From: a virus
Lineage: Duplodnaviria; Heunggongvirae; Uroviricota; Caudoviricetes
Direction: 5' to 3' (one strand)
IMG/VR virus record: IMGVR_UViG_3300011772_000022
Span: 1 to 16,258 of that record
Length of the DNA stretch: 16,258 nt
Below are positions 1 to 6,254 of this stretch, in pieces. Numbering within the stretch: position 1 is the stretch's first letter; each line of letters opens with the position of its first letter. The translations under genes and the position numbers were made by a program. Below the pieces are notes generated by a model. It searched no databases and was not told the origin of the DNA. It saw nothing but the letters and a program-made list of their open reading frames with translations.

Positions 1-223
1 AATTGTCCTCTTCCCATCGTCCTAAGGAAAGTGTGGAGTCCAGAATGACATGTTTATCGTCCATAAATTCCGTTGTACGGTGGATTGCATCAATTTCTTG
101 CTGCTGATATCGATGTCCAAGGCTTGCATAAACAAGTTTTGGGTTACAGTCGAATGTATCTCGTAAGTAGAAGTAAGCAATATATGAATCTAGTCCACCT
201 GAGTAAAGTAAAACATCAACCAT
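1..223 (-). CDS. queC: 7-cyano-7-deazaguanine (preQ0) synthase QueC-like PP-loop ATPase, 5' part only (runs off the left edge; not in ORF track)
   Basis: Manual translation from ATG at 223: MVDVLLYSGGLDSYIAYFYLRDTFDCNPKLVYASLGHRYQQQEIDAIHRTTEFMDDKHVILDSTLSLGRWEEDN..., open to position 1. PP-loop SGGLDS at the N-terminus; RBS-like GTAGGTGA upstream; overlaps the stop of 216..881; same cluster as queD and queE. Confidence 0.8.
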   Translation of the reverse strand, partial: MVDVLLYSGGLDSYIAYFYLRDTFDCNPKLVYASLGHRYQQQEIDAIHRTTEFMDDKHVILDSTLSLGRWEEDN

Positions 224-881
224 TCTGTTCACCTACCCAAGTATCCGGAACATCTGCTAAAATCTCTCGCACGTCTTCAATTCCACTCGGGAATCTAACT
301 GGATTGTTTGATGATAATGCTTCCCGTGACAGTTGACGAACCGCTTCTGTCAGGACACGTTTTTCATTATGTTGCTCATTAATCGTATCTTGATAAGATT
401 TGATATCATCTTCCGCTACCGCCCATCGACGTTTTAGATACGTAAGAGTCTCCTGCATTCCAGAAACAACGTCAACTGCTTCCTTATATTTGGATTCATA
501 ATGGTCTTTTAGATTCGACATCTTCGTTAGGTCCATATCTAGCTTACCCTTAGCCGTTTCAAGCGCAACCGCTTTGGCTTCTAAGTCCATGAAATGACCA
601 TGTAGCTTCTGGTATTCTGATTGAGCCTCTTCCTTTTCTCGTTTCTCCTTGTTCGTACTGCGTATAAATTCATCTACATCAGCATATAGCTTCTGATATT
701 CTGCTTGAGACGCCTCTTTTTCTTTCTTTTCCTTATTGTAGTCAGCTTCCCACTCATCGATATGTTGGTGTGCTTCCTCTAATGATGCCATAAGTTGAAC
801 ACATAACTGTTCAGGTGTCATATTCGAATACGCCAATCGTTTACGCATTTCCTGATAATATTTATTTTCGCTATTACTCAT
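216..881 (-). CDS. Hypothetical long coiled-coil protein (221 aa)
   Basis: E/K/Q-rich heptad pattern. Start reassigned from 914 to ATG 881, which has AAGGAGGAG at 888-896. Confidence 0.8.
   Translation of the reverse strand: MSNSENKYYQEMRKRLAYSNMTPEQLCVQLMASLEEAHQHIDEWEADYNKEKKEKEASQAEYQKLYADVDEFIRSTNKEKREKEEAQSEYQKLHGHFMDLEAKAVALETAKGKLDMDLTKMSNLKDHYESKYKEAVDVVSGMQETLTYLKRRWAVAEDDIKSYQDTINEQHNEKRVLTEAVRQLSREALSSNNPVRFPSGIEDVREILADVPDTWVGEQNG
603..737 (-). repeat. Imperfect internal duplication, 84-nt (28-aa) period
   Basis: 603-653 versus 687-737 on the plus strand (tagcttctgRtattctg.ttgag...), encoding NKEKREKEEAQSEYQKLH and NKEKKEKEASQAEYQKLY. Confidence 0.8.
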
Positions 882-1520: not shown

Positions 1521-2264
1521 TTAACGAATTCCGTATAATTTGTGTACCTGTGGGATGAATCGAATGTCGTAATGACGTTCATCCATATAATGATGAGCAA
1601 AAGCCGTTCTGATAATGTCCGGCAGCTCTGTATAATTGTTAGCTGATTCTTCAGGTTGGAAGATGATTGGAACATACCTTGCTCCTTCTCCCGCCTTTTT
1701 GATTAATCCCGCAACCTCAACTGCATCCTCGATATGAGAGATGACAAATTTTAGTTGTAGAACACCTATTGGCATTCGATTAATCCATTTCGTCAGCATG
1801 TTCGGATTATAAGCAGGATTTCCTGAGCTTTTTAGTTTAGGAGATACCGAGAATAGCTTCACTTCGTTTTTAAGCTCTCGTCTAGGTATGATAGTACCAT
1901 TCGTTTCAAAGGTCACACCGTCGATTACCGTTCTGCGACGAAGCCTATCAAGTAATACTGCTAAGTCGGTATGATTATGCAACAGTGGTTCCCCACCAGT
2001 GATAACCAAGTCTTTAATCCGATGCTCTTCCGCTAATAACTTAATTTTTGCTTCTAGTAAGGCTAATGACATCGATGTATAAATCCCTTCGTGATACAGG
2101 TTTTCATCCCAAGAATGAGCCGTATCACACCAGACACAAGCAAGATTGCATCCGTATAAGCGAAGGAAGATTGTTTTACGTCCTATATCAGAGCCTTCTC
2201 CCTGAATTGTAGGAAATAGCTCCATGACTCTAAAAGGTTCGCCTGATTTATGTGGTTGTTTCAT
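1521..2264 (-). CDS. queE: 7-carboxy-7-deazaguanine synthase QueE (radical SAM)
   Basis: ELFPTIQGEG, CNLACVWC (CxxxCxxC), ITGGEP, ETNGT, SVSPK and C-terminal PQVHK motifs. Start reassigned to ATG 2264 (ATGA overlap, GAAGGTG RBS). Confidence 0.92.
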   Translation of the reverse strand: MKQPHKSGEPFRVMELFPTIQGEGSDIGRKTIFLRLYGCNLACVWCDTAHSWDENLYHEGIYTSMSLALLEAKIKLLAEEHRIKDLVITGGEPLLHNHTDLAVLLDRLRRRTVIDGVTFETNGTIIPRRELKNEVKLFSVSPKLKSSGNPAYNPNMLTKWINRMPIGVLQLKFVISHIEDAVEVAGLIKKAGEGARYVPIIFQPEESANNYTELPDIIRTAFAHHYMDERHYDIRFIPQVHKLYGIR

Positions 2265-2443
2265 CTTTTGCACCTTCTTTTTCTTTCTTCCCATGAGTAA
2301 ATGATTACGATTATGAAGAAGAAAATCATTGTTGGTAACCAGAGTATGTGCATAATAACTTTCATTGGTAACCCCCAAGAGTCAGGTTGGGAAAAGAAGA
2401 ACCCGACTCCAAGGTATACAAGAGCTATTATGACCCACATCAT
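2261..2443 (-). CDS. Small two-transmembrane-helix protein with basic C-terminus
   Basis: Two hydrophobic stretches followed by ERKRRCKR; ATGA-coupled to both neighbours. Confidence 0.7.
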   Translation of the reverse strand: MMWVIIALVYLGVGFFFSQPDSWGLPMKVIMHILWLPTMIFFFIIVIIYSWEERKRRCKR

Positions 2444-2859
2444 TTCTCTTCTTGCTCTTCCTTAATGGCATTTACTTCAGCCATTGGTGGGACTGTGCAA
2501 TGTACTTCATCTACTTCCAGTAGGTTAATTGGCTTTCTCACAATCTCATTTGCAGCAATATCCTCTGCTAACAAGATTGCTAGGAAGGCAAGTTCATTGA
2601 TTTGGTCCATAGCCTGCTCGAACATTTCAAATTTGTCGCCCGCTTCGTCGAGAGAACGAAGTCGTTTAGCTTTTACAAGATTACGGTCTACGAATGTAGA
2701 GTAACGGTAATCTCTCCAAGCATCCTTGTATTTACCATTACGGTCGAGAAAAATACTTTCCGCAGCAGCTAATACGATGTCCCGCTTTGTTTTTGTGTCT
2801 TCACCATTTGCGATTGATACTCCTAGTGTTGCCACCTGATTTTTCGTAAATGAATCCAT
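2440..2859 (-). CDS. DUF1599 / nucleotide-modification-associated domain 1 (Nmad1)-like all-alpha protein
   Basis: IFLDRNGKYKDAWR...STFVDRNLVKAKRLRSL...DQINELAFLAI resembles my recollection of the DUF1599 pattern (F.KK..DYG.AWR...S..D.I.IKA.R.R.L...E...IINY..MALI). RBS AAGGAGG. Not HMM-verified. Confidence 0.6.
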   Translation of the reverse strand: MDSFTKNQVATLGVSIANGEDTKTKRDIVLAAAESIFLDRNGKYKDAWRDYRYSTFVDRNLVKAKRLRSLDEAGDKFEMFEQAMDQINELAFLAILLAEDIAANEIVRKPINLLEVDEVHCTVPPMAEVNAIKEEQEEK

Positions 2860-2875
2860 TGTCTAATTCCTCCTT

Positions 2876-3502
2876 CTAATCTATGTTTACAAGAATTACT
2901 GCCGACCCTTTAACCTGAAAATCTCTTCCATCAACGGAAACCCATGCATGTTTTTCATTAGGAACCCAATATGTAGAAATTCCTTCTCGACGTTTTAGTT
3001 CCTCTGTTAAGTCAGCCGTTGAGTAAAGTGATAAAGGGTTGTCCACCTTTGCAGCAGGAAGACTCTTTTGATGAATCTCCGCATAACAAGTCGGAGTTTC
3101 ATAGAGTCTAACGAATTCAAGTAGGACGTTTTTCGGAAGATGTTTTTCCATCTCCTTATAAATCCAGTATACCAAGTTCTCAGCACTGGTGTTCATGTTA
3201 GGTAAACTTTCGTTTAAGTATCTGTGGTCCAATCTTGGCTCTAAATGTTCTTTCCATATCTTCTTAATGTCCCCGAAGTCAATTACGATTCCAATTGGGT
3301 TCGGGATACCCACCACACCGAATTGTACTCTGTAAAGGTGTCCATGCATGTTCTTACATTTACCCTCGTATGCATGAAGATGGTGGGCTGCATCGAATGT
3401 GAATTCTTTTACTACTAATGTAGGAACCACATGATATCGTAGTTCGTCTGGTTGAATATCCTCTCCATAAACCTGTGCTTTGTCTGGTACTTTGTAATCC
3501 AT
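2876..3502 (-). CDS. queD: 6-carboxy-5,6,7,8-tetrahydropterin synthase QueD with extra ~50-aa C-terminal domain
   Basis: KEFTFDAAHHL, CKNMHGH, IDFGDIK, LDHRYLN, SAENL and ETPTCYAE motifs; the ORF continues about 64 aa beyond the normal QueD end. Confidence 0.92.
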   Translation of the reverse strand: MDYKVPDKAQVYGEDIQPDELRYHVVPTLVVKEFTFDAAHHLHAYEGKCKNMHGHLYRVQFGVVGIPNPIGIVIDFGDIKKIWKEHLEPRLDHRYLNESLPNMNTSAENLVYWIYKEMEKHLPKNVLLEFVRLYETPTCYAEIHQKSLPAAKVDNPLSLYSTADLTEELKRREGISTYWVPNEKHAWVSVDGRDFQVKGSAVILVNID

Positions 3503-3521: not shown

Positions 3522-3791
3522 TTAGTTCACACGGATTTTAAATAAAATGCTTGTGCGGTCTTCCCCACTAATCTTTGTATCTTCAAAGCCCGGTACTAAC
3601 ACAAGGTCTTTTCCGGCAGGTGCCACAAATCCTCGTGCGATTGCAGTTGCTTTAACAGTCTGGTTAACTGCGCCTGCTCCAATAGCAGTCAGCTCAACTG
3701 TGTAACCTTCTTCGATGTTCTTCGCAATAGCTCCCGCTACAGAAGATGGATTGCTTGTAGATTTTACTTTTAGACGTTTGATTTCGCTCAT
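3522..3791 (-). CDS. spoVS: Stage V sporulation protein S homologue
   Basis: SNPSSVAGAIA, AIGAGAVNQTVKATAIARGFVAPAG and GEDRT closely match SpoVS along its full ~89 aa. Confidence 0.95.
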   Translation of the reverse strand: MSEIKRLKVKSTSNPSSVAGAIAKNIEEGYTVELTAIGAGAVNQTVKATAIARGFVAPAGKDLVLVPGFEDTKISGEDRTSILFKIRVN

Positions 3792-5318: not shown

Positions 5319-6254
5319 TCATTTCACCTCGTCTAAGTTTTGTCTACCATCTACTTCAGCAAGCGTTAAATTATCTTTCGAGTAACATAGTGTTCTCCAA
5401 GGACAGTATTTACACTCAGCAGATTTCTTGTCATTAACAATACGTTCTGGTAGATTACCTGAATCGACAATTGCTTCCGTCGTATCCAGTTTAATGAATT
5501 GTTTATCTAAAAACGGTTGGAATAATGAGATGTTATAGTTTTTCATTTCCTGATTGTTCTTGTTTCCATAATGGAAGATACCACCGGGAATTTGTAAACC
5601 ATACATATAAATATTCGCCTGATACAGATGCTTGTCGAGAGGTTGATTCAATTTCTCGAAGTAATCTCTCGTCGCTTTCATCTCTTCAGTCCAGTTAGGT
5701 TCAGCCGCTTTAATTGTTTTGATTTCTATTACTCTCATTCCAGTAGGTGCAGTGTTATCCACTACAACACCATCGGCGTGACCTGCAATTGGTTTTCGGT
5801 CTCCTCGTAAGATTCGGACCGGAACCTCTTCATATTTGAGATTTTCCCAGATATAAAGTTTCACGTCACAATTTGGGCATCGTCTCGGTGAAGCGTTAAC
5901 CATGTCGAACCATTTATGTTCACATCGTTGACATTTCCATTTCCCGAGCAGCTTTCCCATATCCCAATAGTACCCTTGAATTTGATAACCGAAGTGATGT
6001 CCTACATCGAACAATCTACGAAGTTGCGCTCGTATCTTTTCATCGTTCGACTTTGGAGTTTTGACATGACTAAAAGCCAATCTTCGAAGACAATCCGTGG
6101 TGGATATCTCAGATGGGTGCCACACATTCTTCTCCCTATCATTCTCTTGGTCTAGGAATGGTTTCCCCTGCAATTTTAGTAGGTACCTATCCATTTCATG
6201 CCCTAGATTCTGATTGGGACTTTTTAACGTTTTCAGTAAGTCTCCTAACGCCAT
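5319..6254 (-). CDS. Solo Cas4-like PD-(D/E)XK exonuclease with Fe-S cysteines and an inserted CxxC-CxxC motif
   Basis: HPSE..C55, GHAD161G, E177IK, QANIY and C-terminal CKYCPWRTLC (1+3 Cys of the Cas4/AddB type). Confidence 0.85.
   Translation of the reverse strand: MALGDLLKTLKSPNQNLGHEMDRYLLKLQGKPFLDQENDREKNVWHPSEISTTDCLRRLAFSHVKTPKSNDEKIRAQLRRLFDVGHHFGYQIQGYYWDMGKLLGKWKCQRCEHKWFDMVNASPRRCPNCDVKLYIWENLKYEEVPVRILRGDRKPIAGHADGVVVDNTAPTGMRVIEIKTIKAAEPNWTEEMKATRDYFEKLNQPLDKHLYQANIYMYGLQIPGGIFHYGNKNNQEMKNYNISLFQPFLDKQFIKLDTTEAIVDSGNLPERIVNDKKSAECKYCPWRTLCYSKDNLTLAEVDGRQNLDEVK

What the first reader, a model, noticed from the sequence alone, without database searches (positions are those of the whole stretch)
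2440..2859. DUF1599/Nmad1-like protein placed between queD and queE
Seen: an all-alpha-type sequence with K-Y-x-D-A-W-R and D...K..R motifs. Established: DUF1599 was named for its association with nucleotide-modification loci and belongs with predicted all-alpha NTP pyrophosphatase-like proteins. Inference: it may trim dGTP or deaza-(d)GTP pools. If it removes dGTP, that would hint at pre-replicative (polymerase-level) incorporation instead of the known post-replicative DpdA exchange, which would be a new route.
Basis: inference. Interest (0 to 1): 0.7.

Follow-up and report, generated by a model that had tools for sequence, protein, structure and literature searches.

The report
DUF1599 helper gene in phage deazaguanine operon
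A small helical protein of unknown function sits between two genes that make the modified base 7-deazaguanine in this phage and its close relatives. The phage also has the usual enzyme that swaps that base into finished DNA, so nothing here points to a new route of incorporation.

Summary
Window 2440-2859(-) is a real 139-aa gene under purifying selection. It has a strong ribosome-binding site and the K-Y-K-D-A-W-R and D..K..R motifs, and it belongs to DUF1599/Nmad1 (PF07659, barely above cut-off).

- **Fold:** AlphaFold models of this protein and of a bacterial tandem homologue give all-alpha NTP-pyrophosphatase folds as top PDB matches (AF_0060, MazG, HisE, dimeric dUTPases). Z is only 6-7.
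- **Active site:** The metal-binding carboxylate quartet of those enzymes is missing. The family signature is mostly basic and aromatic.
- **Assembly:** A homodimer is predicted, which mirrors the tandem bacterial form.
- **Context:** QueD-DUF1599-QueE is conserved in three related phage lineages. It is not a family-wide link: only 1 of 22 other DUF1599-bearing viral records has QueD.
- **DpdA:** The contig is circular, and the operon continues into queC and an intron-split dpdA. Bacillus phage BCD7 has the same module without DUF1599.

I read it as an accessory nucleotide- or pterin-phosphate-binding protein. I do not read it as evidence for polymerase-level incorporation. The scan had noted DUF1599 near que genes on other DNA before.

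The parts
2440..2859 (-). DUF1599/Nmad1 gene. It encodes 139 aa: a helical core (residues 1-105) and a low-confidence acidic tail (106-139).
2869..2875 (-). Shine-Dalgarno sequence AAGGAGG for the DUF1599 gene. It abuts the QueD stop codon, and the intergenic gap is 16 nt.
   Evidence: Read directly from the sequence.
2713..2733 (-). Codons for K43-Y44-K45-D46-A47-W48-R49. Y44 is invariant and W48 is 99% conserved across 104 DUF1599 domains.
2662..2688 (-). Codons for D58...K63...R66 on helix 2. Conservation is D58 98%, K63 99% basic, R66 invariant. Canonical MazG-type enzymes carry E-E-x-x-E at this position.
   Evidence: The helix mapping comes from the aligned ranges.
2876..3502 (-). QueD (6-carboxytetrahydropterin synthase, PTPS family), with an extra C-terminal segment that matches phrog_5765.
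2261..2443 (-). A 60-codon hydrophobic small ORF. Its start overlaps the DUF1599 stop (ATGA) and its stop overlaps the likely QueE start (ATGA).
   Evidence: It is 58/60 identical in L002, with dN/dS 0.07.
1521..2264 (-). QueE (radical-SAM 7-carboxy-7-deazaguanine synthase). The likely start is the ATG at 2264, giving 247 aa as called in the relatives.
2..232 (-). N-terminal 77 codons of QueC. The gene continues across the circular junction at the far end of the contig.

Best explanation
The gene encodes a divergent, single-domain DUF1599/Nmad1 protein.

It probably forms a symmetric homodimer that reproduces the two-repeat architecture of the Bacteroidota homologues. Its fold resembles the all-alpha NTP pyrophosphatases. 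Its conserved pocket is built from Lys/Arg, Tyr, Trp, Asp and Asn instead of a metal-binding acid cluster.

It is co-transcribed with QueD, a 60-codon membrane ORF and QueE, and is probably translationally coupled to them.

Inferred: it is an accessory factor that binds, and perhaps hydrolyses, a phosphorylated guanine-type or pterin-type metabolite. GTP/dGTP and the QueD substrate dihydroneopterin triphosphate are the obvious candidates. In this way it would tune precursor supply for preQ0 synthesis.

It is not a core pathway enzyme. The base still enters DNA after replication through the phage's DpdA1-like transglycosylase.
For: - **Family membership:** all 104 domain sequences in alignment A1 hit PF07659, with 89 library hits.
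- **Fold, single domain:** Foldseek ranks AF_0060 (2p06, probability 1.0, E 0.06), a MazG-related protein (2yxh) and HisE at the top. VIA-align gives 2p06 Z 6.7, MazG 3cra Z 6.2, 2yxh Z 6.1 and HisE 1yvw Z 6.0.
- **Fold, tandem homologue:** an independent model gives dimeric dUTPases 5myd (Z 7.2, 135 residues aligned), 1w2y (Z 6.9) and 2yay (Z 6.2), plus 2p06 (Z 6.4), at ranks 1, 2, 3 and 5 of 48,161 chains.
- **Homodimer:** predicted score 0.77 against a best control of 0.00. That mark was reached by 20 of 30 proteins solved as pairs and 1 of 23 solved as single chains. The three runs agree in at least 96% of contacts, and partner pLDDT is at least 80. Most homologues are tandem repeats.
- **Conserved residues:** K40, Y44, W48, R49, R52, D58, K63, R66, R68 and N88.
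- **Operon:** QueD-DUF1599-QueE is conserved in L002, L003 and L008-L010, with tight spacing and overlaps and dN/dS 0.17.
- **Accessory role:** Bacillus phage BCD7 has SpoVS...QueD-QueE-QueC-FolE-DpdA with no DUF1599 anywhere in the genome.
- **DpdA present:** for this genome. Its near-identical orthologue in L002 is about 28% identical to the DpdA of the CAjan/Seurat phages.
- **Nucleotide or pterin theme elsewhere:** folP lies divergently next to DUF1599 in 57 of 74 Bacteroidota loci. Rare fusions join it to HIT and IspD domains. Asgard viruses carry a dUTPase-ThyX-DUF1599 block (10.1101/2021.07.29.453957).
Against: - No ligand or activity has been shown.
- All fold matches have Z below 8, a range that is common for helical bundles (notes).
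- hhalign against MazG gives probability below 1%, and there are no PDB sequence hits.
- This clade has replaced three family-signature positions (D43 to K, E/D77 to F, Y89 to E), so conclusions drawn from the wider family may not transfer.
- The folP adjacency is divergent, not operonic, and could reflect inherited synteny within one phylum.
- A basic helical dimer could bind nucleic acid or another protein instead of a small molecule.
Confidence: 0.5

Rival explanations
1. The protein is a dGTP (or deaza-dGTP) pyrophosphatase that depletes dGTP, so that a 7-deazaguanine nucleotide is incorporated by the polymerase. This would be a pre-replicative route that replaces or supplements DpdA.
For: The fold resembles all-alpha NTP pyrophosphatases. 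Pool-trimming enzymes of this fold exist in other hypermodifying phages, such as MazZ and dCTPase (own knowledge). A MazG/dUTPase-like gene lies next to the deazaguanine cluster of phage phiST (PMC10516641).
Against: - dpdA is present in this genome and in every relative examined, directly after queC.
- Published work concludes that all known deazaguanine phages encode a DpdA and modify DNA after replication (PMC10516641).
- The metal-binding carboxylate quartet needed for MazG-type hydrolysis is absent.
- No kinase or other enzyme that would make a deaza-dGTP was seen among the window genes I scanned.
Confidence: 0.07
2. It is a general nucleotide-metabolism or replication accessory of the phage's DNA-synthesis module (RNR, ThyA, DHFR, RuvC, RecA). 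It happens to sit between queD and queE in this lineage and has no specific role in deazaguanine synthesis.
For: - In other viruses DUF1599 lies beside the Pol III alpha subunit, 5-hmdU DNA kinase plus PolA, a VapE-type primase, a class II RNR, a clamp loader, or primase-helicase/RusA/ThyX.
- Only 1 of 22 other DUF1599-bearing viral records has QueD, and there it is 14 kb away.
- The window carries ThyA, DHFR and RNR within 10 kb.
Against: The exact position between QueD and QueE, with gene overlaps or 16-nt spacing, is kept across lineages whose DUF1599 proteins are only 53-77% identical. Other parts of the module vary among them, such as the presence of FolE and the RNR class. This clade also has its own substitutions at signature positions, which suggests specialisation.
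Confidence: 0.23
3. It is a non-catalytic helical dimer that binds protein or nucleic acid. For example, it could be a scaffold or chaperone linking QueD to the oxygen-sensitive QueE step, or a DNA-binding helper for DpdA.
For: The conserved surface is rich in Lys/Arg with no acid cluster. A large symmetric dimer interface is predicted. The gene is tightly coupled to QueD and QueE.
Against: The invariant Tyr, Trp, Asp and Asn pattern, and the fusions to nucleotide-handling HIT and IspD domains, fit a small-molecule pocket better. The Bacteroidota homologues are widespread chromosomal genes with no QueE partner nearby.
Confidence: 0.2

Closest known systems
Pfam PF07659 DUF1599 / Nmad1 (nucleotide modification associated domain 1); typical members are the two-repeat proteins of Bacteroidota
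   Same: It shares the signature Y44, W48, D58, K63, R66 and N88 and the three-helix core, and it scores above the Pfam cut-off.
   Different: It has a single domain plus an N-terminal helix and an acidic tail. Three signature positions are changed (D43K, E/D77F, Y89E). It is embedded in a que operon, whereas the bacterial genes lie beside folP. The Pfam score is marginal (25.3 against 25).
All-alpha NTP pyrophosphatase superfamily (MazG, HisE/PRA-PH, dimeric dUTPases, AF_0060; PDB 2p06, 3cra, 2yxh, 1yvw, 5myd, 1w2y)
   Same: Helical-bundle topology and dimeric or pseudo-dimeric organisation. Members are the top structural matches in two independent searches.
   Different: There is no E-x-x-E / E-x-x-D metal-binding quartet, and basic residues occupy helix 2 instead. 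Profile-level sequence similarity is absent. Z scores are only 6-7.
Phage 7-deazaguanine DNA-modification clusters with DpdA1 (Escherichia phages CAjan, Seurat and 9g; Bacillus phage BCD7)
   Same: QueD, QueE, QueC and a DpdA about 28-30% identical to those of these phages, measured on the near-identical L002 orthologue.
   Different: This clade inserts DUF1599, and in this phage also a 60-codon membrane ORF, between QueD and QueE. BCD7 lacks it. This genome has no FolE, and its dpdA carries a LAGLIDADG intron.
MazZ/DatZ-type dNTP pool trimming in 2-aminoadenine (Z-genome) phages
   Same: MazZ is a MazG-fold enzyme (own knowledge).
   Different: Those systems lack a post-replicative base-exchange enzyme and use metal-dependent hydrolases. 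Here DpdA is present and the catalytic acids are missing.

Membership tests
DUF1599 / Nmad1 (PF07659) | Scores above the Pfam gathering threshold | tested here: met
   25.3 bits against a cut-off of 25, and 26.5 bits in the six-frame search. The margin is small.
DUF1599 / Nmad1 (PF07659) | Family-wide signature residues (Y, W, D, K, R, N on helices 1-3) | tested here: met
   Y44, W48, D58, K63, R66 and N88 are all present. D43, E/D77 and Y89 are replaced in this clade.
DUF1599 / Nmad1 (PF07659) | Homologues found by sequence search are DUF1599 proteins | tested here: met
   89 library hits, and 104 of 104 aligned domains hit PF07659.
All-alpha NTP pyrophosphatases (MazG/HisE/dimeric dUTPase) | Shared helical-bundle fold | tested here: inconclusive
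   Superfamily members top both searches, but with Z 6.0-7.2 and Foldseek E of 0.06 or worse. This is below the level that is decisive for helical proteins.
All-alpha NTP pyrophosphatases (MazG/HisE/dimeric dUTPase) | E-x-x-E and E-x-x-D carboxylates that bind Mg2+ | tested here: not met
   Only D58 is a near-invariant acid. The helix 2 positions are K63, R66 and R68. The residue mapping is by helix register, not from coordinates.
All-alpha NTP pyrophosphatases (MazG/HisE/dimeric dUTPase) | Profile-level sequence similarity | tested here: inconclusive
   hhalign gives probability below 1%, but the MazG profiles were thin, built from five genomes. No PDB profile hit.
All-alpha NTP pyrophosphatases (MazG/HisE/dimeric dUTPase) | Pyrophosphohydrolase activity | not testable with these tools
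   Needs an enzyme assay.
Phage DpdA-dependent 7-deazaguanine DNA modification system | preQ0 synthesis genes QueD, QueE and QueC | tested here: met
   QueC spans the circular junction.
Phage DpdA-dependent 7-deazaguanine DNA modification system | DpdA transglycosylase encoded by the phage | tested here: met
   phrog_887 pieces at G000 105594-106163, 104349-104768 and 102959-103573. The two N-terminal exons are collinear with the unbroken 302-aa orthologue, meeting at residues 169|170.
Phage DpdA-dependent 7-deazaguanine DNA modification system | FolE (GTP cyclohydrolase I) | tested here: not met
   No PF01227 match in the 106.8-kb genome. It is present in relatives L003 and L008, so here it is presumably supplied by the host.
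Pre-replicative (polymerase-level) base replacement system | No post-replicative base-exchange enzyme | tested here: not met
   DpdA is present in this genome and in its relatives.

The most novel reading that the evidence does not exclude
This que-linked DUF1599 clade may be an unrecognised fifth component of phage preQ0 synthesis. It would be a metal-independent, basic-pocket dimer that binds or cleaves the triphosphate-bearing precursor (GTP or dihydroneopterin triphosphate) or the triphosphate by-product of QueD. It would thereby set the split of flux between folate and 7-deazaguanine synthesis. The folP-adjacent Bacteroidota proteins would do the equivalent job in folate synthesis. If so, a family present in at least 599 bacterial species would gain its first function.
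Probability: 0.15. Interest if true: 0.65.

Novelty: new variant of a known kind. Interest (0 to 1): 0.38.

Why it matters
DUF1599 is a widespread family with no tested function. It was found in at least 599 bacterial species, nearly all Bacteroidota, and in scattered viruses.

A fixed position between QueD and QueE in one phage clade, together with a conserved folP neighbourhood in Bacteroidota, gives concrete and cheap hypotheses about its ligand.

For phage DNA modification, the result is mainly a correction. This locus does not challenge the DpdA post-replicative model. The papers I could search do not mention this gene as a companion of the pathway.

Tried and rejected
- **No matches for P0001:** phmmer and profile searches of PDB sequences, PHROGs, NCBIfam, and tblastn against GenBank phages (also P0012).
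- **MazG comparison:** hhalign of the DUF1599 profile against MazG profiles built from five Bacteroidota genomes gave probability below 1%.
- **PTPS-III idea:** I considered that DUF1599 tracks bacteria that replace FolB with PTPS-III. Bacteroides thetaiotaomicron, the only control genome with DUF1599, still has a FolB match, so I dropped the idea.
- **Family-wide que linkage:** phmmer with que, thy and fol seeds found nothing within 8 kb in 48 loci from viral contigs, 23 of them single-domain (positive control). PF01242 was found in 1 of 22 records.
- **BCD7:** its gp029 and gp030 are not cryptic DUF1599 proteins (hhalign probability 2.4% and 0.3%).
- **Other own-genome searches:** no Pfam TGT, FolE or MazG-like match. 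The TGT miss reflects divergence, because phrog_887 does find DpdA.
- **Rfam:** nothing in the window or in the dpdA insertion.
- **Literature:** I could not retrieve Iyer et al. 2013, which named Nmad1. What I say about that paper is from memory.
- **Wasted or failed calls:** searches used wrong references, and one search used an alignment too diverse for pattern search.

Full report
**The gene.** Window 2440-2859 on the minus strand is an uninterrupted 139-codon ORF. An AAGGAGG Shine-Dalgarno sequence lies 9 nt upstream of its ATG and directly after the QueD stop codon. Pfam assigns it to DUF1599/Nmad1 (PF07659) at 25.3 bits, just above the cut-off of 25; the six-frame search gives 26.5 bits. 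Its neighbours are QueD (2876-3502, PTPS, E 7e-34) and QueE (1521-2378, phrog_2076, E 1e-43). Against its orthologue on an NCBI metagenomic contig (L002), dN/dS is 0.17, similar to QueD (0.23) and QueE (0.12). The gene is real and under purifying selection.

**Genome context.** The window is the first 16 kb of a 106,765-bp IMG/VR virus record.
- The two contig ends repeat 98 bp (positions 2-99 equal 106667-106764), so the assembly is circular.
- QueC, which looks truncated at the window edge, continues at the far end of the contig.
- Directly after QueC come three pieces that match the phage DpdA family phrog_887.
- The first two pieces are collinear with an unbroken 302-aa orthologue in L002 (97% and 95% identity, meeting exactly at residues 169|170). 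They are separated by 876 nt that contain a LAGLIDADG endonuclease ORF (Pfam E 1.9e-12). This is an intron-type insertion, although Rfam finds no intron model. A relative, L008, has a LAGLIDADG ORF at the corresponding place.
- The L002 orthologue, which is 95-97% identical to the own DpdA, is about 28% identical to the DpdA of Escherichia phages CAjan and Seurat and about 30% to that of Bacillus phage BCD7.
- No FolE is encoded in this genome.

The phage therefore has the standard QueD-QueE-QueC-DpdA set. Published work holds that all deazaguanine phages encode a DpdA and modify DNA after replication (PMC10516641).

**Relatives and conservation of the arrangement.** Close homologues (53-77% identity over the core) are few. 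Every one with enough flanking DNA shows SpoVS-QueD-DUF1599-QueE-...-QueC-DpdA:
- L002.
- L003, which has FolE and a class II RNR.
- L008 to L010, three contigs carrying one identical protein.

In L003 and L008 the DUF1599 start overlaps the QueD end. In this phage and in L002, a 60-codon hydrophobic ORF fills the 183 nt between DUF1599 and QueE, with ATGA overlaps at both ends (58/60 identical, dN/dS 0.07).

Bacillus phage BCD7 has the same module (SpoVS, QueD, QueE, QueC, FolE, DpdA), but its QueD and QueE abut and the genome has no DUF1599. DUF1599 is therefore an accessory of the pathway and not a core step.

**The wider family.**
- A search of 1.84 billion representative proteins gave 89 hits. 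Most are 170-220 aa long with two DUF1599 repeats.
- The tandem form matched at least 599 stretches in the one-genome-per-species collection, and the 80 best loci are nearly all Bacteroidota.
- In 74 of those loci where I could place the gene, folP lies divergently at position -1 in 57. A MauE/DoxX-like membrane protein follows at +1 in 59. cdaA and tpiA are also frequent neighbours.
- Among 14 control genomes, only Bacteroides thetaiotaomicron has the family above the cut-off.
- In other viruses, single-domain DUF1599 lies beside the Pol III alpha subunit, a 5-hmdU DNA kinase plus PolA-UDG, a VapE-type primase, a class II RNR, primase-helicase/RusA/ThyX, or a clamp loader.
- Asgard viruses have a dUTPase-ThyX-DUF1599 block (10.1101/2021.07.29.453957).
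- Only 1 of 22 other DUF1599-bearing viral records contains a QueD homologue, and there it is 14 kb away. My seed searches found no que genes within 8 kb in any of them (control).

The que linkage is therefore specific to this clade. The family as a whole associates with DNA replication and nucleotide or folate metabolism. Rare fusions to HIT and IspD domains point to nucleotide-phosphate chemistry.

**Structure.**
- An AlphaFold model built on 104 domain sequences is confident (pLDDT 87.8). It has helices at 6-18, 22-44, 53-73 and 76-105 and a poorly defined acidic tail.
- Foldseek ranks AF_0060 (2p06; E 0.06, probability 1.0), a MazG-related protein (2yxh) and HisE entries at the top.
- VIA-align against 48,161 chains gives 2p06 Z 6.7, E. 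coli MazG Z 6.2, 2yxh Z 6.1 and HisE Z 6.0, interleaved with unrelated helical proteins.
- An independent model of a tandem homologue (pLDDT 92, pTM 0.90) gives dimeric dUTPases 5myd (Z 7.2, 135 residues), 1w2y (Z 6.9) and 2yay (Z 6.2), plus 2p06 (Z 6.4), at ranks 1, 2, 3 and 5.
- These scores are individually weak for helical bundles. The repeated appearance of one superfamily at the top of two independent searches makes an all-alpha NTP-pyrophosphatase-like fold the best available assignment.
- A homodimer of residues 1-110 scored 0.77 against a best control of 0.00. That mark was reached by 20 of 30 proteins solved as pairs and 1 of 23 solved as single chains. The runs agree in at least 96% of contacts, and pLDDT is at least 80. 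This fits the tandem architecture of the bacterial proteins.

**Active-site logic.** Across the 104 domains, the conserved positions are K/R40, Y44 (100%), W48 (99%), R49, R52, D58 (98%), K63 (99%), R66 (100%), R/K68 and N88 (100%). D43, E/D77 and Y89 are less strict. Judging by helix register in the structural alignments, helix 2 carries D58, K63 and R66 where MazG-type enzymes have E-E-x-x-E. The four-carboxylate metal site that defines those pyrophosphatases is not present. hhalign against thin MazG profiles shows no similarity.

A pocket of stacked aromatics, one Asp, one Asn and six basic residues suits direct binding of a base plus a polyphosphate. It does not look like a classical Mg-dependent hydrolase site. 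The que-linked clade has also changed three signature positions (D43K, E/D77F, Y89E). This explains the marginal Pfam score and suggests altered specificity.

- The fold assignment is plausible but not proven.
- The pyrophosphatase inference is weakened by the missing catalytic acids.
- The suggestion of a DpdA-independent, pre-replicative route is not supported, because dpdA sits in the same operon.
- The refutation criterion "no enrichment near que genes" is met for the family at large but not for this clade.

**Best reading (confidence about 0.5).** It is a homodimeric accessory protein that binds, and perhaps cleaves, a phosphorylated guanine-type or pterin-type metabolite and supports preQ0 synthesis.

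**Rivals.**
- A general replication or nucleotide accessory with no role in the que pathway (0.23).
- A non-catalytic scaffold or nucleic-acid binder (0.20).
- The dGTP-trimming, pre-replicative idea (0.07).

I tested and dropped one sub-hypothesis that tied DUF1599 to the PTPS-III replacement of FolB.

**Earlier notes of this scan.** Notes on the same genome had independently flagged the dpdA intron and the queC/dpdA pair, and I re-derived both here. Notes on other genomes had mentioned DUF1599 near que genes.

Noticed in passing
window 2261-2443 (-): A 60-codon ORF with two hydrophobic segments sits between DUF1599 and QueE. ATGA start/stop overlaps occur on both sides. It is 58/60 identical in L002 with dN/dS 0.07, and matches no family. 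It implies that the true QueE start is the ATG at 2264, not the TTG at 2378.
   Followed up: partly
window 2-99 and G000 106667-106764: The contig ends repeat 98 bp, so the record is a circular assembly of about 106.67 kb. CheckV's 70% 'linear' estimate may understate completeness. QueC spans the junction.
   Followed up: yes
G000 104751-105626 (outside the window; L004 625-1500): dpdA is interrupted exactly between residues 169 and 170 of the intact orthologue by 876 nt carrying a LAGLIDADG endonuclease ORF. No Rfam intron model matches. Relative L008 also has a LAGLIDADG ORF after its first dpdA piece.
   Followed up: yes
window 2876-3502 (-), residues 161-208: QueD has a C-terminal extension of about 50 residues that matches phrog_5765 (unknown function). 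The 157-158-aa QueD proteins of L003 and L008 lack it.
   Followed up: no
window 3522-3791 (-): A SpoVS homologue (Pfam E 1e-31) lies directly upstream of QueD in this phage, in L002, L003 and L008, and near QueD in Bacillus phage BCD7. This points to a spore-forming Bacillota host.
   Followed up: no
window 5319-6254 (-): A 311-aa protein has a weak Cas4-like nuclease match (TIGR00372, E 4e-4, below cut-off) and zinc-ribbon-like hits. BCD7 annotates a 'CRISPR/Cas system associated' protein at a similar place in its module.
   Followed up: no
L015-L094 (Bacteroidota genomes): Conserved neighbourhood: cdaA and folP on one strand, with tandem DUF1599, a MauE/DoxX-like membrane protein and often tpiA on the other. 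folP is at -1 in 57 of 74 loci.
   Followed up: partly
P0058, P0083, P0052: Rare DUF1599 fusions to a HIT domain, to IspD (a cytidylyltransferase) and to an ABM monooxygenase domain.
   Followed up: no
L008 3787-5254: In a relative, thyA is split by an I-TevI-like (NUMOD3) endonuclease ORF and the RNR gene is also in pieces. Homing elements seem to riddle the nucleotide-metabolism genes of this phage group.
   Followed up: no
L128 288-4269: In an unrelated complete viral contig, DUF1599 lies between a 5-hmdU DNA kinase and a UDG-PolA fusion. That is a thymidine-hypermodification context.
   Followed up: no
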